From: Candidatus Aenigmatarchaeota archaeon
GTDB lineage: Archaea; Aenigmatarchaeota; Aenigmatarchaeia; JACPZZ01
Direction: 5' to 3'
Assembly (NCBI GenBank): GCA_043801595.1
Contig: JAZDLW010000005.1
Coordinates: forward strand, 1-46,526
DNA: 46,526 nt
Shown piece after piece: positions 40,028-46,506 of the stretch (its first letter is position 1; each line of letters starts with the position of its first letter). The notes under the pieces were generated by a model that saw nothing but the letters and a program-made list of their open reading frames with translations, made no database searches and was not told the origin of the DNA. The position numbers and the translations under genes are program-made.

Positions 40028-40666
40028 ATGTCGGAATTAGGCTACGCCTGCGGTGTCCTTTGCGCTAGGGGTTTTATCAAAAAAGGCAGAAACAATTGCA
40101 TCGGGCTGAGTACTAAAAACAAGGAGCTTATTGACGCATTCGCAGCAGCACTGCGTTCGGTGTGTGGCCGCGACATGCTTGTTATTCAAAAAACTATAGC
40201 CCAGAAAACATATTTTACAGCAAATATTTACGGAAAGCATATTGTGGAAATCTTCGGCAATATCGGATTTTTGCCAAAAAGGAAAACATGGTCGCCTCCG
40301 GATATCGCGTACCATAACCATGATTTCCGTTCTTCGTTTCTCGCGGGTTTTTTTGACGCAACCTCAGTTGTCTATTTTGACCGTGAAAAATTTTTAGTAT
40401 CGGGCAATGGTTACAGATACCTGCGTGTGACATCGGTGAATCTGGAAGGTCTGATAAAGATAAAAAAGCTGCTTTCGCTCGACGGCGTGGAATCGTCTCT
40501 CCGCTCGCGCAATTCGCTGCACTATCTGGTAGTAAAAGGCAAATGGCGGTTGGTTTCGTTCATCAATGCAATAGCGCTGCGGACACAAAAAAAAACCCGT
40601 CTTCGGGAGTGCATCAGCGCTTCAACGCCTTCGCAATTGCCCAACCCAACAGACCGCCCACAATAA
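40028..40666 (+). CDS. Free-standing two-motif LAGLIDADG-fold protein with degenerate catalytic positions
   Basis: Motif 1 LGYACGVLCARG and motif 2 FLAGFFDATS; TSVN...L..IK.LL...G..S. Not within an intein or recognisable intron. Confidence 0.75.
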   Translation: MSELGYACGVLCARGFIKKGRNNCIGLSTKNKELIDAFAAALRSVCGRDMLVIQKTIAQKTYFTANIYGKHIVEIFGNIGFLPKRKTWSPPDIAYHNHDFRSSFLAGFFDATSVVYFDREKFLVSGNGYRYLRVTSVNLEGLIKIKKLLSLDGVESSLRSRNSLHYLVVKGKWRLVSFINAIALRTQKKTRLRECISASTPSQLPNPTDRPQ

Positions 40667-41075
40667 CGTCTGTGGGATAGTGAACGCCCACATAGATCCG
40701 CGATATCCCTACCAAAATCGCGAACGCAAAGAACAAAATACGGTATTTCTTTGCTGCATCTGAAGCGAAATCCGCCCACGCGAACGACGCCGCGCTGTGC
40801 GTGGACGGGAATGAATACGACGATTCTTCGGGTACTCTCAATATGCCTGTCGGTCTCGGTCTGCAAAAAACCTGCTCAAGGAACAGCGAAACCAGAATCG
40901 ACGTGATGATTGCGGCTGTATAATTTATTCCAGTCCTCCTGTCTTTCAGCGCAAACGGTATTGTGCTTAGCGCGAAAACAACCATGGATATGTTGCTCAC
41001 AAAAAGTAAAATTGACGCGACATTGTATGCATCATAGCTGTTTATTGTGTTGAATAATATGGTTTCCAATATCAT
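40614..41075 (-). CDS. PAP2-family membrane phosphatase
   Basis: RPRP, SFPSTH, SRIYVGVHYPTDV. Confidence 0.92.
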   Translation of the reverse strand: MILETILFNTINSYDAYNVASILLFVSNISMVVFALSTIPFALKDRRTGINYTAAIITSILVSLFLEQVFCRPRPTGILRVPEESSYSFPSTHSAASFAWADFASDAAKKYRILFFAFAILVGISRIYVGVHYPTDVIVGGLLGWAIAKALKR

Positions 41076-41077
41076 GT

Positions 41078-43738
41078 TTATCCTGCATCCACCTTGATCT
41101 TCTCTGTAATGCCCTCGGGTGTGTTAATCTGTATTTTTGCGCCGCACTTGCACATTCCGCTCAGCGGTGCGGATGTGAAATTCGCCCCGCAGCCGGCGCA
41201 GACAAAACCATCGAACACGTTGCTCGGTTTTTTCGGAGTCGTTTCCATCAGCGATCTCTGGCGTCCTTTGCCGAGAAGTTCTGATTTCGAAAAGCCGAGC
41301 GCTATGAATATTCTTTCAACCGGCGGGAGCAGCTGGTTCTCGACATAGTATGTCGGGTCTATATCTATTTTATTCTTCACCACAAAATCCGGATCCTCGC
41401 TTCTTCTGGAAAGGAGCTGGTTTCCTTTTGTGATAACGTAGCCTACCCTGTCTCCGACGCCCGGCGCTTCGGCCGGGTTGCGTTTTTGCATTTTTTTCAC
41501 GAGCTCGATGTGCGGTTGCAAACCCGCATAGTTCGCTGGGCTCTTTGTTATACTCTTGGTTATCACAAGTTTTTCTATCGGAATTTTATTTTCCGACAGG
41601 TTCTTCATCACCACATTGAAATAACTGAGAGCCTCTTTCGTGTCTCCGCGCTTTAGAATTATCTCTATTGTCTTCGTCATTGTTTCGGAAACAAGTTCGC
41701 ACCAGTCGCGTCGGACTGTCTCAATACCTTTCGTCTCTATTTTATCCTTCCAAACGCCGTTGTCCTTGACAAACTTCCACGCAGCGTACCTTTTCTTTGT
41801 CAATATCAAAAAACTTTTGAAAATCTTTTCAAATTCCATCTGCATTACGCCTGAAAGCTGTTTGTTTATGTTCGCAGCCAGTTCGATCCCTTTATCCCAG
41901 CCTTTATCAAGGTCGGTTTCGGGTATCTTGATCATTATCGAGTCTGTGTCTCCATACACTGCAGGATATCCGAAATCCTGTTCGACTGTCTTTTCAACGG
42001 TCTGTATAAGGTAGCGCCCGCTTGAAGTTATCGCGTTTGCTATATCCAAAACGTAGAGTCTCGCTTTCGTGTAGCCCGTGTAGCCGTAAAAGGCGTTTGA
42101 CAGAAGTTTCAGCGCAAGCTGTTTCGCGTCCAATATCCTTAATTTTTCTTCGTCAGCCTCTCCTCTCATAATCTTTTTCGTTTTCACGCGTTCGTCCATC
42201 AGGTGCGTTAATATTCCGGGAATTATCCCCTCCTGGACGCTTTTCGAAACGAACGTGTACCCTGTGGGCGTTTTAATAACATCCTTCTCTTCTTCGTTCT
42301 TCACAATGGTTGTCGGGCATATGTTGTAGCTTCGTATTATCGACGGGTACATGCTGCGAAAGTCAAGGACAACAACCAGCCCATCAGAGTGAAGGCCTGT
42401 TTTCGGCGTAAGCACGAAACCGCCCTTTAACCCCTGGTCCTCCTTTTCTTTTTCTTTTTTCTTTATGTCCAAGGAACCTGGCTTGCACGGAACAACGTAA
42501 TTTCTTTTATTAAATTCGCGCAGCAGCAGATTTTCTATGCGGGACGATTCACCGCTGTCGAGGCTGTCCTGCAGGAGGGCACCGCTCAGCTTCGAAAGCT
42601 CGATGTATTTGTCAAGAAGCTGTTTTTTAATGACGAGTTTTAATGCCAACTCCGCGTCCTTTCTTGCATAATCCGCAAGCCTGGTTATTTTTTCCCTGTC
42701 TCCGCTGTTCCACAGTTTCGATATCTCGGAGTGTGCCACATCAAGCTTCTGTTCTTTGAGCAGTATTTTCGAAACGTCGGTCAGACCGTAGCGTTTAAAC
42801 GAGAAGTTCTTCTTTATCAATTGATAACTATCAGCGACAATCCGTCCGGGCAATGTCGAACGCGATCTGTTTTTCATTATCTCCTTTGAATAGGCCTGTT
42901 TATCCGTGCATCGTCCGATTGTACGCGGCACTTTGAAAATTTCCATTCTCTTCAGTATGAACGGTATGTCGAAGTTGTTGATGTTGAAACCTGTGAATAT
43001 GTCCGGATTGTATTCCGTTACTATTGACCTGAACTTTTCGAGCATCGAATCTTCGCCGAGACACCGTATCACGTCCTTTCCGTCTGCCATTCTTGTTGTC
43101 AATACAAGTGTATCATGGCCTGCGTGCTGCGGGCTGAACGCCATGCTTATCATTATTATTTCGTCCTCCTCCGGATTCGGCAGCCCGCCGCGCTTTGACA
43201 GCGTTTCTATGTCAACGGACAAATAACTCATCTGCGTGTTCGTTACTTGGATCGAGGGCGATATTTTTGTTATATTTACGGTACGGTCAGCCTTCACTGT
43301 TGCGGTTTTTATATCCGCGCACTCGACATCGATCCAGCTCATTCCGCTGATCATGAAATCTGCCATGAATCTGTACTTGAAAAGTATGTCCGCCTCGAAA
43401 ATTTCTTTGATAGACGGATGTTCTTTGATAATGTCTCTTAGTTCGGAAACCTTGGCCGGATTTCTCATCACGACCTTGATCATTTCCGTCATATTTCTTG
43501 AAAAGCCTATTGGGAGCCGCTTTTCTACGCGTTCGCATTTCACGACATCGGCCGTGCGACCGCTCAAATATTTAATTATGTCCGCTGACTTGCCTTCCTT
43601 TGGGAGCACATAAAAATACGGCATGTACCCTTTGACAAATCCGCAAACACTTTTGTTGTTTTCGTCCTTGCCGAATATTCTTATCACTGGGCTGTTCTCG
43701 ATCAACACGTAGTCGACGTCCAATATTTGCAGCTTCAT
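41078..43738 (-). CDS. polB: Family B DNA polymerase with intact 3'-5' exonuclease, PIP-like box and C-terminal DP2-like zinc finger
   Basis: ExoI DIE, ExoII FN..NFD, ExoIII Y...D; DFRSMYPS, K...N..YG, YGDTDS, KKRY, KG.E.VRRD; no intein. Confidence 0.97.
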   Translation of the reverse strand: MKLQILDVDYVLIENSPVIRIFGKDENNKSVCGFVKGYMPYFYVLPKEGKSADIIKYLSGRTADVVKCERVEKRLPIGFSRNMTEMIKVVMRNPAKVSELRDIIKEHPSIKEIFEADILFKYRFMADFMISGMSWIDVECADIKTATVKADRTVNITKISPSIQVTNTQMSYLSVDIETLSKRGGLPNPEEDEIIMISMAFSPQHAGHDTLVLTTRMADGKDVIRCLGEDSMLEKFRSIVTEYNPDIFTGFNINNFDIPFILKRMEIFKVPRTIGRCTDKQAYSKEIMKNRSRSTLPGRIVADSYQLIKKNFSFKRYGLTDVSKILLKEQKLDVAHSEISKLWNSGDREKITRLADYARKDAELALKLVIKKQLLDKYIELSKLSGALLQDSLDSGESSRIENLLLREFNKRNYVVPCKPGSLDIKKKEKEKEDQGLKGGFVLTPKTGLHSDGLVVVLDFRSMYPSIIRSYNICPTTIVKNEEEKDVIKTPTGYTFVSKSVQEGIIPGILTHLMDERVKTKKIMRGEADEEKLRILDAKQLALKLLSNAFYGYTGYTKARLYVLDIANAITSSGRYLIQTVEKTVEQDFGYPAVYGDTDSIMIKIPETDLDKGWDKGIELAANINKQLSGVMQMEFEKIFKSFLILTKKRYAAWKFVKDNGVWKDKIETKGIETVRRDWCELVSETMTKTIEIILKRGDTKEALSYFNVVMKNLSENKIPIEKLVITKSITKSPANYAGLQPHIELVKKMQKRNPAEAPGVGDRVGYVITKGNQLLSRRSEDPDFVVKNKIDIDPTYYVENQLLPPVERIFIALGFSKSELLGKGRQRSLMETTPKKPSNVFDGFVCAGCGANFTSAPLSGMCKCGAKIQINTPEGITEKIKVDAG

Positions 43739-43766
43739 GTTCCCACTAATAGTCCTGTTACATAAT

Positions 43767-44807
43767 TTAAAAGCTGGTCATTTCTGCTGACCGCGTCTTT
43801 AGGTCTATCCTTACGGCCGGCTCGCCGTCGTCCGCGCATCCGACAGCGATAAAAGTGTAGCCTTTGTTATTTGCAACGCCGGTTTTATCCGATTTGCCAA
43901 GCAAAATTATATCCGTTTCCTGGTCTATCACAAACGGATCTTCGAGAAAAGCGGGCGCAATCTTGTCATCGCCTATGTAACGCCTCTTTGAAAAGAACCT
44001 TGCCTGCGATTCTATGCCGTCCGTATGGTTTGCGCGCAGATTTTGCAGCACGAATTTCGCGTTTCCTGTGGTTATGGTAGCCTTCGCGGCATTCGGGAAA
44101 ACGTTTTCCGAAGTTACGCTCCCGTTTTCTATCCGCATCACAGCACAGGAACCGTCGTTTCTATCGTCCCCGCTGAAAATAAAAACAAAGCATTCTCCTT
44201 TCTTGTTGGCAATATTTTTTATTGCGTTTCCGGTTCCTGCTTTGGCCCACGCAAAAATCGCCGAACATTCCTTTTCCGAGAATCTCACGCGTTTTTTTAT
44301 TGTCAGTTCTGGGTGCGTTATTCTTTCCGCAAAAAGTTTGTTGTCGGAAAAGAAGCCCGTTGCTGCGACAACATCGTTTTCCGCGACGTCCTCCTTTGTT
44401 CTTAGTGCAACTTCGCAGTGCCCTGTCAAATCCTCCAGAACAAACCCGCTTTCAGTCGGTTCTCTTACAAGCCCCAGGATTGTGTTTCGTTGCCCGAACC
44501 TCGCCCTGTTCATAGACACGGGTTTGTCGTCCAGCCGTGCTGTTATGAACGGCGCGAGTGCGAGTATTTTATTCTTGTAATAATTCAAGAAATCCTTTGC
44601 TGTAATTTCGTTTCTCGCGATTTCCGGTTTTTCGATAACAATACCCTGTCCCGATCTTATTTCCGAAAGCGTGTTCTTGTCCACTGTCTTGAGTTTTTTT
44701 GCAAGAACAGTGTCATAATCCCGCTCTGTTATCTCGCCGGCGACATCCGGCGAAACCATCACGCCGCTGTCCAGCAATTTTCTTATCAAAACCTTGTCCA
44801 TGAACAT
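43767..44807 (-). CDS. DNA polymerase D small-subunit (DP1) homolog with inactivated phosphoesterase domain
   Basis: DF..Y...K, OB-fold G.V.......LED.TG and DVV...G.......I..P; C-terminal RR....IAP...D..VI...DI...G. The catalytic DxH, GNHD, HG and GHxH motifs are absent. Confidence 0.75.
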   Translation of the reverse strand: MFMDKVLIRKLLDSGVMVSPDVAGEITERDYDTVLAKKLKTVDKNTLSEIRSGQGIVIEKPEIARNEITAKDFLNYYKNKILALAPFITARLDDKPVSMNRARFGQRNTILGLVREPTESGFVLEDLTGHCEVALRTKEDVAENDVVAATGFFSDNKLFAERITHPELTIKKRVRFSEKECSAIFAWAKAGTGNAIKNIANKKGECFVFIFSGDDRNDGSCAVMRIENGSVTSENVFPNAAKATITTGNAKFVLQNLRANHTDGIESQARFFSKRRYIGDDKIAPAFLEDPFVIDQETDIILLGKSDKTGVANNKGYTFIAVGCADDGEPAVRIDLKTRSAEMTSF

Positions 44808-44822
44808 CGTCTTATCACTCGT

Positions 44823-46049
44823 CTACTCGAAGTAAAAATCTTTTTTTAGCATTTCGCACAGGTCGTCCTGCGTGTGCTTCGACGACAGGATGCTGATTTC
44901 TTTTGTCCTGCCATGGCGGCCTTTCGATGTCGTGCGCACTGACAATATTCCGAGCATGCCTAATTCGGATATCAGGTCCGAGGAGCGTCTCGGCCCCAAT
45001 GGTTCGAGCCCTCTTTTCTTGCACACTTCTTTGTATTTTTCATATGTCCCGCCTGTTGTGAGGCCGGCGCCCTGATTGTTTAATATTGCCCACAAAATCG
45101 CCTGCGATTGCATTGGCTGCGAACGGACTGTTTCTACGACGCGGTCAACGTTTATTTTTTCCTGCGCTTTGTCGACGTGCGCCTCGTCCAGCGACTTGTC
45201 ACCGCCCCTTTCGGCGATTTCTCCCGCAACTCTCAGCAGGTCCAGCGCCCGCCTTGCGTCGCCGTGCTCCTGCGCTGCGAGCGCAGCGCACTTTGAGATC
45301 ACGCCGTCCTTTACGGTTCCCCCCATAAAAGACAGCCTGGCACGTTCGCTGAGTATGTCCCTGAGTTCGAGCGCGTTGTACGGCGAGAAGACTATTTCCT
45401 CTTCGCCGAGCGAGGATTTTACGCGCGGATCCAGCGACTCCGAAAAAGACAGGTCGTTCGTAACGCCTATGATTGTTAGTTTCGCATTCGACAGGTCCTG
45501 ATTGACCCTTGTGAGATTGTACAGGATGTTGTCGCCGACCTTTGAAACCAGCGCATCGATTTCATCGAGCACAAGCAAAACGTTCTGCTTGCACGAATCG
45601 AGGTTTTCGTAAAAAATTTCATACAATCGGCTTGTTGGCAGACCGGTAGCAGGAACATCGCAGCCAAACTCCTTGCAAAGCTGCGCAATCACCCTGTATT
45701 CGGTGTCCGCAATTTTCTTCATCTTGCAGTTTATGAAAACGGTTTTTACGTTGATTTTGTTCTCGGCAGCCATTGAAGCGAGTTCGTTCACAACATGCTT
45801 TATACACAACGTCTTGCCTGTGCCCGTCTTCCCGTATACGAACGTGTTCGATGGTTTATTGTTGCGAAGGCACGGTGCCAGAATCGAAGCGAGTGTTTCC
45901 ATCTGTTTGTCGCGGTGTGGTATGTCGCTCGGGTCGTAGCTTGTTGCTAGCGGCTCTTTTGACAAGAAAATGGCGTTGTTGTTAAGATAACCTGAAAATA
46001 TTTTGTGCAAAGACGTCTGCGGAATAAAAACCACCAACCAAGATTTCAT
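44823..46049 (-). CDS. cdc6: Orc1/Cdc6 replication initiator (exact start uncertain)
   Basis: Walker A GKTGTGKT, Walker B LDEID, LY.LTR, LDPRV.SSL, PY.A..L..IL..R, HGDARRALDLLR, wH domain S.GR.GRT. Confidence 0.97.
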   Translation of the reverse strand: MKSWLVVFIPQTSLHKIFSGYLNNNAIFLSKEPLATSYDPSDIPHRDKQMETLASILAPCLRNNKPSNTFVYGKTGTGKTLCIKHVVNELASMAAENKINVKTVFINCKMKKIADTEYRVIAQLCKEFGCDVPATGLPTSRLYEIFYENLDSCKQNVLLVLDEIDALVSKVGDNILYNLTRVNQDLSNAKLTIIGVTNDLSFSESLDPRVKSSLGEEEIVFSPYNALELRDILSERARLSFMGGTVKDGVISKCAALAAQEHGDARRALDLLRVAGEIAERGGDKSLDEAHVDKAQEKINVDRVVETVRSQPMQSQAILWAILNNQGAGLTTGGTYEKYKEVCKKRGLEPLGPRRSSDLISELGMLGILSVRTTSKGRHGRTKEISILSSKHTQDDLCEMLKKDFYFE

Positions 46050-46080
46050 TTGAATTGTTGGTATTTATATTCTATGCTCC

Positions 46081-46506
46081 CTACCCCACCCCCTGCTTTC
46101 CACTGGAACCTTTGAACGCCGCCAGACCGTAAAATTCCCTGTATTTCGGGTATGGACCGTCCGCTGGATGAAAAAACGTCTTTGCTTTCGGTGTGGAATC
46201 CCTTGGAAACACGTAAAACCCGGCAGCCTCGCTCCCGAGCAGACAAACAAAAACAAGGTAGTCACACCCTTCCGCAAGCTCGTAGAATGTCTTTGCCTGT
46301 TCGCCGCCTGCCGCGAACAAAAAACCTTTGTTGTTTTTCGTGGAATATCTCACTTTGAAACGCAGCAACCTGTCTCCCTTCAGTGCGATAAAGTCCGGAC
46401 CGCCGTCAAAAAACAAATCCTGCGGCGCCCAGCCACACGACAACAACTCCAAAAACACAAGATATTTTGACAACAGGAAACCGAGGTTGCGATTTTTGAT
46501 TTTCAT
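46081..46506 (-). CDS. PD-(D/E)XK nuclease-fold protein, apparently degenerate
   Basis: G......V...L...G, PDFIA.KG....FKVR (in place of [QE]VK), DYLVFV and FYVFP pattern. Confidence 0.5.
   Translation of the reverse strand: MKIKNRNLGFLLSKYLVFLELLSCGWAPQDLFFDGGPDFIALKGDRLLRFKVRYSTKNNKGFLFAAGGEQAKTFYELAEGCDYLVFVCLLGSEAAGFYVFPRDSTPKAKTFFHPADGPYPKYREFYGLAAFKGSSGKQGVG
46088..46109 (-). promoter_or_regulatory. Origin recognition box (ORB)-like Cdc6/Orc1 binding site
   Basis: Minus strand reads GTTCCAGTGGAAAGCAGGGGGT, matching the archaeal ORB (TTCCAGTGGAAA plus G-string), ~40 bp upstream of cdc6. Confidence 0.7.

What the first reader, a model, noticed from the sequence alone, without database searches (positions are those of the whole stretch)
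41078..46109. Candidate eukaryote-like archaeal replicase: ORB - cdc6 - inactivated DP1 - PolB bearing a DP2-type zinc finger
Seen: co-oriented cdc6, DP1 homolog and polB separated by only 15 and 28 bp, with an ORB upstream. The DP1 homolog lacks its catalytic motifs; the PolB has its own intact exonuclease and ends in a DP2-like Cys4 motif. Known: in Thermococcales the origin locus is oriC-cdc6-DP1-DP2, and the DP2 C-terminal region including its zinc module contacts DP1. Eukaryotic Pol alpha/delta/epsilon/zeta are PolB catalytic subunits whose C-terminal Cys modules bind B-subunits, which are inactivated DP1 homologs. Inference: here PolB occupies the DP2 slot and pairs with a dead DP1, giving the two-subunit architecture of eukaryotic replicases, either as a parallel invention or a relative of the ancestral state. 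DP2-like tails on some archaeal PolBs have been noted before; the operonic pairing with an inactivated DP1 is what appears new.
Basis: partly seen in the sequence, partly recalled or inferred. Interest (0 to 1): 0.9.

Follow-up and report, generated by a model that had tools for sequence, protein, structure and literature searches.

The report
Aenigmatarchaeota PolB plus dead DP1 replicase
This is the replication-origin gene cluster of an Aenigmatarchaeota archaeon, where a family-B DNA polymerase carrying a zinc finger borrowed from PolD sits beside a catalytically dead PolD small subunit; the eukaryote-like pairing is real but was already published in 2020 and tested in 2025.

Summary
On the minus strand lie an ORB box (46084-46108), orc1/cdc6 (44823-46049), a 346-aa DP1 homologue (43767-44807) and an 886-aa PolB (41078-43738), with gaps of 15 and 28 bp.

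- **DP1 homologue:** it has the DP1/B-subunit fold but none of the five phosphoesterase motifs.
- **PolB:** its exonuclease and polymerase motifs are intact. It ends in a flexible linker and a Cys4 ribbon whose only match in a full DP2 is the C-terminal Zn-III finger.
- **DP2:** not found in this genome, nor in 234 of 251 genomes of the class.
- **Taxon:** close relatives are named Candidatus Aenigmarchaeota/Aenigmatarchaeota.

Kazlauskas et al. 2020 already described this system: PolB "B6-aenigma1", inactive DP1, no DP2, offered as a model for eukaryotic PolB plus B-subunit. A 2025 Nat Ecol Evol paper reported that DP1 and this PolB bind, by AlphaFold3 and yeast two-hybrid. So the reading is sound but not new.

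What I add is small:
- the cdc6-DP1-PolB cluster is conserved across the class;
- DP1 decay is graded between families;
- this genus has lost the RR docking residues of the finger;
- DP1 evolves about six times faster than its neighbours but is still under selection;
- one genome has a cdc6-DP1 fused frame.

Binding of this particular pair is unshown.

The parts
46084..46108 (-). Origin recognition box (ORB): TTCCAGTGGAAA followed by a G-string, 34 nt upstream of the cdc6 start codon. It overlaps the last codons of a conserved 141-aa ORF.
   Evidence: Read directly. Exact 12-mer match. The only place in the assembly that fits ORB plus G-string, with 0 for the backwards control. Like boxes lie upstream of cdc6 in relatives L021, L022 and L023; several lie there in L025, L027, L029 and L030.
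44823..46049 (-). orc1/cdc6 replication initiator, 408 aa
   Evidence: Pfam Cdc6_lid 8.2e-26, Cdc6_C 8.1e-23 and AAA domains. TIGR02928 scores 415.8 bits, above its cut-off; NF001625 scores 482 bits, just under its cut-off of 501. 80-82% identical in genus relatives.
43767..44807 (-). Catalytically dead DP1 / B-subunit-like protein, 346 aa: N-terminal helical domain, OB fold and a degenerate phosphoesterase domain
   Evidence: NF003118 matches the N-terminal and OB part only. Profile hits solved DP1 chains at about 1e-20. AF2 pLDDT 91.3, pTM 0.83. Foldseek top matches are PolD DP1 and Pol delta/epsilon/alpha/zeta B-subunits. All 5 PDE motifs are absent. dN/dS is 0.21 in the one unsaturated pair.
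41270..43738 (-). PolB core (residues 1-823): N-terminal, 3'-5' exonuclease and polymerase domains, with catalytic motifs intact
   Evidence: Pfam DNA_pol_B 380.9 bits, DNA_pol_B_exo1 126.7 bits. Residue-by-residue alignment to 1tgo. Motif residues are invariant in 26 of 26. It is the only PF00136 match in the assembly.
41210..41269 (-). Linker of the PolB C-terminal extension (residues 824-843). It holds the Q-x-x-L stretch aligned with the terminal PIP-like box of tail-less PolBs of the PolD-retaining family.
   Evidence: AF2 pLDDT is below 50 for residues 825-839. Tails are compared. The PIP reading is an inference.
41081..41209 (-). PolB C-terminal Cys4 zinc ribbon (residues 844-886; C847, C850, C863, C865), related to the DP2 Zn-III finger
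   Evidence: The four Cys are invariant in 26 of 26. hhalign of the tail profile against full-length DP2 of the same class gives a single hit at DP2 1023-1058 of 1106, probability 95%, E 3.2e-8; the next hit has probability 0.2%. The model shows strands only and no helical bundle. Pfam finds nothing in the tail alone at E up to 10.

Best explanation
This is the chromosomal replication-initiation and replicase cluster of an Aenigmatarchaeota (DPANN) archaeon that has no PolD catalytic subunit.

**PolB.** It belongs to the published 'B6-aenigma1' kind and is the replicative polymerase. It proofreads with its own exonuclease. After its core it carries a flexible linker and a single Cys4 zinc ribbon descended from the Zn-III finger of DP2.

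**DP1 homologue.** It keeps the N-terminal, OB and phosphoesterase-fold architecture but has lost every metal-binding motif. It can therefore only act as a non-catalytic second subunit, like a eukaryotic B-subunit.

**Proposed mechanism (inferred).** By analogy with PolD and Pol alpha/epsilon, the zinc ribbon docks at the OB/PDE groove of the dead DP1. The DP1 N-terminal domain, and its tight linkage to cdc6, then tie the polymerase to the origin or helicase machinery.

**Shown here:** gene identities, dead and intact motifs, fold, kinship of the finger with DP2 Zn-III, DP2 not found, and conserved clustering.

**Taken from papers:** DP1 and PolB-CTD of Aenigmatarchaeota bind.

**Inferred only:** binding in this genus, and the tethering role.
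For: **Identities and motifs:**

**Fold of the DP1 homologue:**

**Finger resembles DP2 Zn-III:**

**PolB tail is a linker plus a ribbon:**

**Polymerase inventory.**
- PolB is the only PF00136 match in the assembly.
- PF03833 (DP2_N) and PF04042 are not found in this genome, which is 86% complete.
- DP2_N is found in 17 of 251 genomes of the class. Sixteen of those 17 are in one family, and none of the 7 other genomes of this family has it.
- The DP1-like profile is found in 237 of 251 genomes, and in 91 of 92 high-quality ones.

**Taxon.** L031 carries a PolB 73% identical to this one and is titled Candidatus Aenigmatarchaeota. P0008, P0009, P0010, P0017 and P0025 are named Candidatus Aenigmarchaeota.

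**Synteny.**
- cdc6-DP1-PolB are adjacent and co-oriented in 7 of the first 10 loci and in L031.
- In 20 further genomes of 14 families, cdc6 lies within 250 bp upstream of DP1 and co-oriented in 16 of 20. PolB lies within 250 bp downstream in 8 of 20, and within 6.5 kb in 17 of 20.

**Selection.** DP1 dN/dS is 0.21, against 0.035 for cdc6 and 0.034 for PolB, in the one unsaturated pair of 21.

**Literature.**
- PMC7544198, section 19 and passages.
- PMC12680538, section 6: AlphaFold3 and yeast two-hybrid binding.
- PMC6355029, passages: Zn-III docks in the DP1 OB/PDE groove, and a 20-aa Zn-III peptide binds DP1 at nanomolar affinity.
Against: - No direct evidence of binding exists for this pair.
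- The KxRRxP loop of Zn-III, whose two arginines dock onto DP1 in PolD, reads NFTSAP here. It is also lost in all genus relatives seen, although RR is kept in 13 of 23 tails sampled across the class.
- The tail lacks the helical bundle that forms the rest of the DP2-CTD/DP1 and eukaryotic CTD/B-subunit interface.
- DP1 is only 37-43% identical within a genus where PolB is 69-73% and cdc6 80-82% identical, so constraint on it is loose.
- cdc6-DP1 linkage is more conserved than DP1-PolB linkage. That fits a Cdc6-centred role at least as well.
- The genome is 86% complete, so absence of DP2 is not proven for this genome alone.
- Only one ORB is visible, and the contig ends 477 bp upstream of cdc6, so the origin itself is not demonstrated.
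Confidence: 0.78

Rival explanations
1. The dead DP1 is kept mainly as an origin or replisome adaptor working with Orc1/Cdc6 (or GINS/CMG). In this genus the PolB zinc ribbon is not its main ligand; the ribbon may instead contact DNA or another factor.
For: - cdc6-DP1 adjacency (16 of 20 loci within 250 bp) is more conserved than DP1-PolB adjacency (8 of 20).
- One genome (L078) has cdc6 and DP1 in a single 873-aa open frame.
- The DP1 N-terminal domain is among the best-conserved parts: G15 and P20 are invariant in 11 of 11 sequences.
- The RR docking residues are lost in this genus.
- Berthon et al. 2008 proposed a Cdc6-DP1 interaction from the same linkage in Euryarchaeota (PMC2643942, passages).
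- The abstract of PMC9023282 in the search listing says the DP1 N-terminal domain binds GINS.
Against: - Yeast two-hybrid in PMC12680538 found DP1 binding PolB-CTD in Aenigmatarchaeota.
- The four Cys, G861 and G866 are invariant in 26 of 26 PolBs, and P858 and L859 nearly so. This argues for a conserved ligand.
- The two roles do not exclude each other.
- The fused frame comes from a single MAG and could be an assembly or sequencing error.
Confidence: 0.15
2. The DP1 homologue still serves a DP2 (PolD) encoded in the unassembled 14% of the genome, and PolB is an accessory polymerase as in Thermococcales.
For: The genome is 86% complete. One family of the class does keep PolD.
Against: - DP2_N was found in 0 of 8 genomes of this family, G000 included, and was not found in 234 of 251 genomes of the class.
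- The PolD-retaining family has a long canonical DP1 with all five motifs and a PolB of about 770 aa without the tail.
- Here the exonuclease motifs that PolD needs are all gone.
Confidence: 0.03
3. The DP1 homologue is a decaying relic with no function, kept only by chance between two essential genes.
For: It diverges fast: 37-43% identity within the genus. All catalytic motifs are lost.
Against: - Intact frames of similar length occur in 237 of 251 genomes.
- dN/dS is 0.21.
- The fold is confident.
- 315 clusters at 50% identity match the profile at E <= 1e-30.
- Residues of the OB domain and the C-terminal part are conserved.
Confidence: 0.03

Closest known systems
PolB group B6-aenigma1 with 'Aenigma_GB_GCA_002789635-like' inactive DP1 (Kazlauskas et al. 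2020, NAR, PMC7544198)
   Same: Same phylum, judged from named relatives. A PolB with one Cys4 motif most like the DP2 zinc motif. DP2 absent. DP1 inactive. Same evolutionary reading.
   Different: Nothing essential differs; this is another genus of that group. The main text of the paper does not mention the cdc6-DP1-PolB clustering (supplements unseen). I did not test placement in their trees.
Baldrarchaeia PolB3-DP2CTD plus DP1 (Nat Ecol Evol 2025, PMC12680538)
   Same: A PolB fused to a DP2-derived C-terminal module. DP2 lost, DP1 kept. Binding shown by yeast two-hybrid for both Baldrarchaeia and Aenigmatarchaeota.
   Different: According to that paper, Baldrarchaeia has a full-length CTD resembling DP2 and eukaryotic CTDs, while the Aenigmatarchaeota CTD is shorter and 'degenerate'. 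Here it is a linker plus a strand-only ribbon.
Archaeal PolD (DP1-DP2), e.g. P. abyssi 6T8H, 6HMS, 5IHE
   Same: The DP1 fold. A Zn-III-like finger with the shared C-x2-C...P-L-x-G-x-C pattern.
   Different: No DP2 catalytic core. DP1 has none of the five nuclease motifs. The finger sits on a family-B polymerase, lacks the helices that follow Zn-III in DP2 and, in this genus, lacks the RR pair.
Eukaryotic Pol alpha/delta/epsilon/zeta catalytic subunit CTD plus B-subunit
   Same: A family-B catalytic subunit with a C-terminal Cys module, beside an inactivated DP1-type second subunit. Foldseek matches p50, Pol epsilon subunit 2 and the Pol alpha B-subunit.
   Different: One Cys4 module rather than two (CysA and CysB), and no helical bundle. 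The second subunit is about 100 residues shorter. The genes are clustered at the origin.
oriC-cdc6-DP1(-DP2) replication island of Thermococcales, Halobacteriales and Methanosarcinales (Berthon et al. 2008, PMC2643942)
   Same: An ORB next to cdc6, and cdc6 next to the DP1 gene. In P. abyssi DP2 follows.
   Different: Here PolB follows DP1. In the only PolD-retaining family of this class, DP1, DP2 and cdc6 are not clustered in the loci I read.

Membership tests
Orc1/Cdc6 initiator | AAA+ ATPase, lid and C-terminal winged-helix domains | tested here: met
   Pfam AAA, Cdc6_lid and Cdc6_C. TIGR02928 scores 415.8 bits against a cut-off of 181.3.
PolD small subunit DP1 (active exonuclease) | N-terminal domain, OB fold and calcineurin/Mre11-like phosphoesterase fold | tested here: met
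   Profile against solved DP1 chains, E 7.9e-21. AF2 model and Foldseek, E 1.8e-12 to 9f29_A.
PolD small subunit DP1 (active exonuclease) | Five metal-binding phosphoesterase motifs. In the canonical DP1 of the same class these read DxH, GD, GNHD, H and GHxH. | tested here: not met
   None of the five is present. There is no Pfam Metallophos or DNA_pol_E_B hit, whereas relatives L027 and L028 do have them.
PolD small subunit DP1 (active exonuclease) | A DP2 partner encoded in the genome | tested here: not met
   PF03833 is not found in this 86%-complete genome, nor in 7 of 7 other genomes of the family.
Aenigma-type inactive DP1 (Kazlauskas 2020) | Aenigmarchaeota origin, inactive DP1, no active DP2, co-occurrence with a PolB bearing a C-terminal zinc motif | tested here: met
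   Taxon from named relatives. Motifs. DP2. PolB tail. Placement in their tree was not tested.
PolB group B6-aenigma1 (Kazlauskas 2020) | [quoted passage not shown] | tested here: met
   hhalign gives a single hit at the DP2 C-terminal finger, probability 95%.
PolB group B6-aenigma1 (Kazlauskas 2020) | Phylogenetic placement inside the B6 clade | not tested
   I built no tree with their reference set. Their accessions and supplements were not available to me.
Eukaryotic replicative PolB catalytic subunit CTD | Two Cys modules (CysA and CysB) and a helical bundle that grips the B-subunit | tested here: not met
   One Cys4 only. The modelled tail has strands and no helices after residue 833. No Pfam zf-DPOE hit in the tail at E up to 10, although DP2 of the same class does hit it.
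ORB-type archaeal replication origin | ORB consensus with a G-string beside orc1/cdc6 | tested here: met
   The position is conserved in relatives.
ORB-type archaeal replication origin | Two or more ORBs flanking an A+T-rich unwinding element; initiation at this site | tested here: inconclusive
   Only one ORB is seen in the window and in the assembly, and the contig ends 477 bp upstream of cdc6. Other families show 2-4 boxes upstream of cdc6. Initiation itself cannot be tested with these tools.

The most novel reading that the evidence does not exclude
The ORB-cdc6-DP1-PolB cluster records an in-place replacement. A PolB gene recombined into the DP2 gene of an ancestral oriC-cdc6-DP1-DP2 island and kept only the Zn-III-coding 3' end.

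Afterwards the second subunit decayed in steps that can still be seen among living families:
1. All five motifs, with DP2 present.
2. Four of five motifs with the RR loop kept.
3. No motifs with RR kept.
4. No motifs and no RR, as in this genus.

The dead DP1 is retained because it bridges Orc1/Cdc6 (in one genome even fused to it) and the polymerase. This would be a natural series for studying how a proofreading subunit became a eukaryote-style B-subunit.
Probability: 0.22. Interest if true: 0.55.

Novelty: already known. Interest (0 to 1): 0.3.

Why it matters
The pairing of a family-B polymerase carrying a DP2-derived zinc finger with an inactivated DP1 is the best living analogue of the eukaryotic catalytic-subunit/B-subunit architecture. 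It therefore bears on how eukaryotic replicases arose. That point has been in print since 2020 and was tested in 2025, so this window adds no new concept.

It does give a clean, contiguous example and some modest additions that could guide experiments:
- the cluster sits beside an ORB and cdc6, and is conserved across many families;
- DP1 inactivation is graded across the class;
- this genus has a minimal finger without the RR dock, which makes it a stringent test of what the finger needs in order to bind.

Tried and rejected
- **Complex prediction.** DP1 homologue (alignment A4) with PolB residues 812-886 (alignment A3). No verdict: scores 0.43, 0.47 and 0.48, one control at 0.33. I use it neither for nor against binding.
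- **The look-up of sequencing runs for RNA.** No RNA holder was listed, so co-transcription could not be examined.
- **Promoter and terminator scan.** It uses bacterial consensus sequences and is uninformative for an archaeon.
- **phmmer of the DP1 homologue alone against PDB.** The only match was a chance one at E 0.99, to a ricin A chain entry. I disregarded it. The profile search was needed to reach DP1.
- **GINS search with Pfam Sld5 in the own genome.** No match, but the control found the family in only 1 of 14 control genomes, so the model is too insensitive to say anything.
- **Pfam on the PolB tail alone.** Nothing at E up to 10.
- **GC-skew profile.** No turning point inside the window.
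- **dN/dS.** 20 of 21 pairs within the genus were saturated at synonymous sites; only L005-L021 was usable.
- **In-place replacement of DP2.** I considered it, but the PolD-retaining family gave no support: DP1 and DP2 lie on different contigs and there is no cdc6 near DP1.
- **Literature on the gene clustering.**
  - Searches for 'operon', 'neighbo', 'adjacent', 'Cdc6', 'Orc1' and 'gene order' in PMC7544198, and for 'operon', 'synten', 'adjacent' and 'neighbo' in PMC12680538, found no mention of this cluster.
  - Library searches turned up no other paper on it.

Full report
**What is there.** The window is contig C11 of an 814-kb, 32-contig assembly that is 86% complete. On the minus strand lie three tightly packed ORFs:
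- 44823-46049, 408 aa;
- 43767-44807, 346 aa;
- 41078-43738, 886 aa.

The first ORF is an Orc1/Cdc6 initiator. It has Pfam Cdc6_lid, Cdc6_C and AAA domains, and TIGR02928 scores 415.8 bits against a cut-off of 181.3.

Thirty-four nucleotides upstream of its ATG is TTCCAGTGGAAAGCAGGGGGTGGGG (46084-46108, minus strand). As I recall the consensus, this is a textbook origin recognition box with its G-string. It is the only place in the assembly that fits TCCAGTGGAAA-N3-12-GGGG, and the backwards control gave none. The bare 12-mer with up to two mismatches is not enriched in the window, with 7 found against 4.98 expected. The case therefore rests on the exact match, the G-string and the position.

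Boxes of the same kind lie just upstream of cdc6 in three genus relatives. Two to four boxes lie there in four other families. Here only one is visible and the contig ends 477 bp upstream of cdc6, so the full origin cannot be judged.

**The DP1 homologue.**
- Pfam finds nothing.
- The NCBIfam PolD small-subunit model matches only residues 13-185, at E 6.7e-14.
- A profile of ten relatives reaches solved DP1 chains over the OB and phosphoesterase domains, for example 6knb_A at E 7.9e-21. It also reaches Pol epsilon subunit 2 weakly, at E 1.6e-3.
- An AF2 model built from 87 sequences has pLDDT 91.3 and pTM 0.83. Its best Foldseek matches are P. abyssi DP1 (9f29_A, E 1.8e-12), human Pol delta p50 (6tny_B, TMq 0.61), and the B-subunits of Pol epsilon, alpha and zeta.

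I aligned it with a canonical DP1 from the one family of the class that keeps PolD (L028). That protein has the motifs DxH, GD, GNHD, H and GHxH. The window's protein has none of the five.

It is not a relic:
- the profile finds it in 237 of 251 genomes of the class, and in 91 of 92 high-quality ones;
- 315 clusters at 50% identity match the profile at E <= 1e-30, and the best 150 are all 251-398 aa long;
- in the one genus pair whose synonymous sites are not saturated (L005-L021, 1 of 21 pairs), dN/dS is 0.21, against 0.035 for cdc6 and 0.034 for the N-terminal half of PolB.

So it is under selection, but about six times more loosely than its neighbours. This fits its 37-43% identity within a genus where PolB is 69-73% and cdc6 80-82% identical.

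**The polymerase.**
- Pfam DNA_pol_B scores 380.9 bits and the exonuclease domain 126.7 bits.
- It is the only PF00136 match in the assembly.
- Aligned residue by residue to Tgo PolB (1tgo), D176/E178 fall on that enzyme's FDIET stretch. NFD, Yx3D, DFRSMYPS and YGDTDS are also in place. The names and roles of these motifs are recalled, not computed.
- All these residues are invariant in 26 of 26 relatives.

Beyond the point where Tgo PolB ends, this protein goes on for about 60 residues. In the AF2 model of the whole protein (pLDDT 81.8), residues 825-839 score below 50. Residues 844-886 form short strands only, with no helix after 833. C847, C850, C863 and C865 are invariant in 26 of 26.

I compared the tail profile with full-length DP2 of the same class using hhalign. 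The only hit was DP2 residues 1023-1058 of 1106, which is its C-terminal finger, at probability 95% and E 3.2e-8. The next hit had probability 0.2%. The shared pattern is plain by eye: DP2 reads F-R-C-x2-C-N-x2-Y-R-R-P-P-L-S-G-K-C-x2-C, and the PolB tails read F-x-C-x2-C-...-P-L-x-G-x-C-x-C-G-G. Pfam does not see this in the tail alone, although it scores the DP2 finger as zf-DPOE.

**Whose genome, and is DP2 really missing?** A PolB 73% identical lies in a record titled Candidatus Aenigmatarchaeota (L031). Five relatives of the tail carry the name Candidatus Aenigmarchaeota.

DP2_N (PF03833) and PF04042 are not found in the own genome. Across 251 genomes of the class, DP2_N is found in 17:
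- 16 of the 17 genomes of one family;
- 1 of 33 genomes of another family;
- 0 of 7 other genomes of the window's own family.

The PolD-retaining family has a long canonical DP1. Its PolB is about 770 aa, lacks the tail and ends in a Q-x-x-L-x-x-F box.

**This is already published.** Kazlauskas et al. 2020 (PMC7544198; section 19 read in full, passages of section 20 and the discussion) describe:
- DP2 absent from most Aenigmarchaeota;
- a group of inactive DP1 ('Aenigma_GB_GCA_002789635-like') co-occurring with these PolBs.

They propose that all the changes leading to the eukaryotic PolB plus B-subunit could already have occurred in such archaea.

[quoted passage not shown] It reports that DP1 binds PolB-DP2CTD in both, by AlphaFold3 and yeast two-hybrid. 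It calls the Aenigmatarchaeota CTD degenerate, shorter and differently folded.

**What may be incremental.**

*Gene clustering.* Neither main text mentions it: searches found no relevant use of 'operon', 'neighbo', 'adjacent', 'synten', 'gene order', 'Cdc6' or 'Orc1'. The supplements were closed.
- In my first ten loci, cdc6-DP1-PolB are adjacent and co-oriented in 7. Three of those are the same genus, and four are other families. The same holds for L031.
- In 20 further genomes from 14 families, cdc6 lies within 250 bp upstream of DP1 and co-oriented in 16. It is 0.8 kb away in one, convergent in one, and not in the locus in two.
- In the same 20, PolB lies within 250 bp downstream and co-oriented in 8, and 0.66 kb downstream in one. 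It lies directly upstream in one, co-oriented at 2.2 and 6.3 kb in two, and on the other strand 1.6-3.6 kb away in five. It is not in the locus in three.

The oriC-cdc6-DP1 linkage itself is long known in Euryarchaeota, with DP2 following in P. abyssi (PMC2643942, passages).

*Graded decay of DP1.*
- Of 30 loci from DP2-less genomes, none has all five motifs.
- Nine keep motifs I, II, IV and V (one of the nine with GYH for motif V), and in all nine the His of GNHD is gone.
- Twenty have essentially none, and one is intermediate.
- Among 150 database representatives plus the window's protein, 123 have none and 16 have four of five.
- The four-of-five forms still score as Metallophos_2 in Pfam, at E 1.9e-16 for L027.

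*Loss of the RR dock.* Raia et al. 2019 (PMC6355029, passages) show that the Zn-III loop with its KxRRxP motif docks in the DP1 OB/PDE groove, and that a 20-residue Zn-III peptide binds DP1 with nanomolar affinity. So a finger alone could be enough.
- RR is kept in 13 of 23 tails sampled across families.
- It is absent in seven: this window, three genus relatives and three others. It is partial in two, and was cut off in the printed tail of one.
- It is kept in 4 of the 26 sequences of alignment A3, a set biased towards close relatives.
- All five four-of-five-motif DP1s whose PolB tail I read come with an RR tail. These lineages are related, so this is a description and not a test.

*A fused frame.* One genome (L078) has cdc6 and DP1 in one 873-aa open frame.

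**How it most likely works.**

*Shown:* an intact proofreading PolB is the only family-B polymerase detected, and no PolD catalytic subunit was found. It carries a DP2 Zn-III-type ribbon on a flexible linker. A folded but catalytically dead DP1 is encoded between it and cdc6, next to an ORB.

*From papers:* DP1 and PolB-CTD of this phylum bind.

*Inferred:*
- The ribbon docks at the OB/PDE groove of the dead DP1, as in PolD and Pol alpha/epsilon.
- The DP1 N-terminal domain links the polymerase to GINS/CMG or to Orc1/Cdc6. Its G15 and P20 are invariant in 11 of 11 sequences. The abstract of PMC9023282, seen in a search listing, says it binds GINS in Thermococcus.
- The Q-x-x-L stretch at residues 827-830 is the old terminal PCNA box, now internal.

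My own complex prediction gave no verdict and counts for nothing either way.

The main rival is that DP1's retained role in this genus is mainly with Cdc6 or the helicase. The tighter cdc6-DP1 linkage, the fused frame and the lost RR pair support it. It is compatible with the main reading.

**Verdict.** Interest is low to moderate. The value lies in a clean example, the class-wide synteny counts, and the graded series of DP1 and finger decay.

Noticed in passing
window 46081-46506 (-): A 141-aa ORF with no Pfam hit lies directly upstream of cdc6. It is 54-56% identical at the same place in three genus relatives. Its last codons overlap the ORB. Function unknown.
   Followed up: partly
window 40614-41075 (-): A PAP2-family phosphatase (E 9.3e-22) starts 2 nt after the PolB stop codon. 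It follows PolB in genus relatives, and weakly in two other families, so it may be co-transcribed with the replicase genes.
   Followed up: partly
window 40028-40666 (+): A free-standing 212-aa ORF with a weak LAGLIDADG_3 match (E 2.4e-4, 21.7 bits, under the cut-off of 22.5). It overlaps the 3' end of the PAP2 gene on the other strand.
   Followed up: no
L078 2778-5396 (-) (G233:C4): cdc6 and the DP1 homologue lie in one 873-aa open frame with no stop between them. This is either a real fusion or an assembly or sequencing error in a single MAG.
   Followed up: partly
L027, L030, L064, L066, L071-L075: DP2-less relatives whose short DP1 keeps motifs I, II, IV and V but has lost the His of GNHD. 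L027 still scores as Metallophos_2. Whether these retain any nuclease activity is open.
   Followed up: partly
L058, L060, L061, L065, L066, L076 (PolB tails): In these families the second Cys pair of the PolB finger is C-x2-C as in DP2, not C-x-C as in the window. Five of the six also show the RR pair; the printed tail of L076 starts after that position. They look closer to the DP2 Zn-III original.
   Followed up: no
G181:C64:998-1843 (-): The single DP2_N match outside the PolD-retaining family (1 of 33 genomes of family f18) lies in a 622-aa open frame on a short stretch. It could be a remnant, a contaminant contig or a fragment.
   Followed up: no
L029, L059, L062, L063, L068, L069: In these families PolB lies 1.6-3.7 kb from DP1 on the opposite strand while cdc6-DP1 stay adjacent. 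The DP1-PolB link has therefore been broken repeatedly, or once in a shared ancestor.
   Followed up: no
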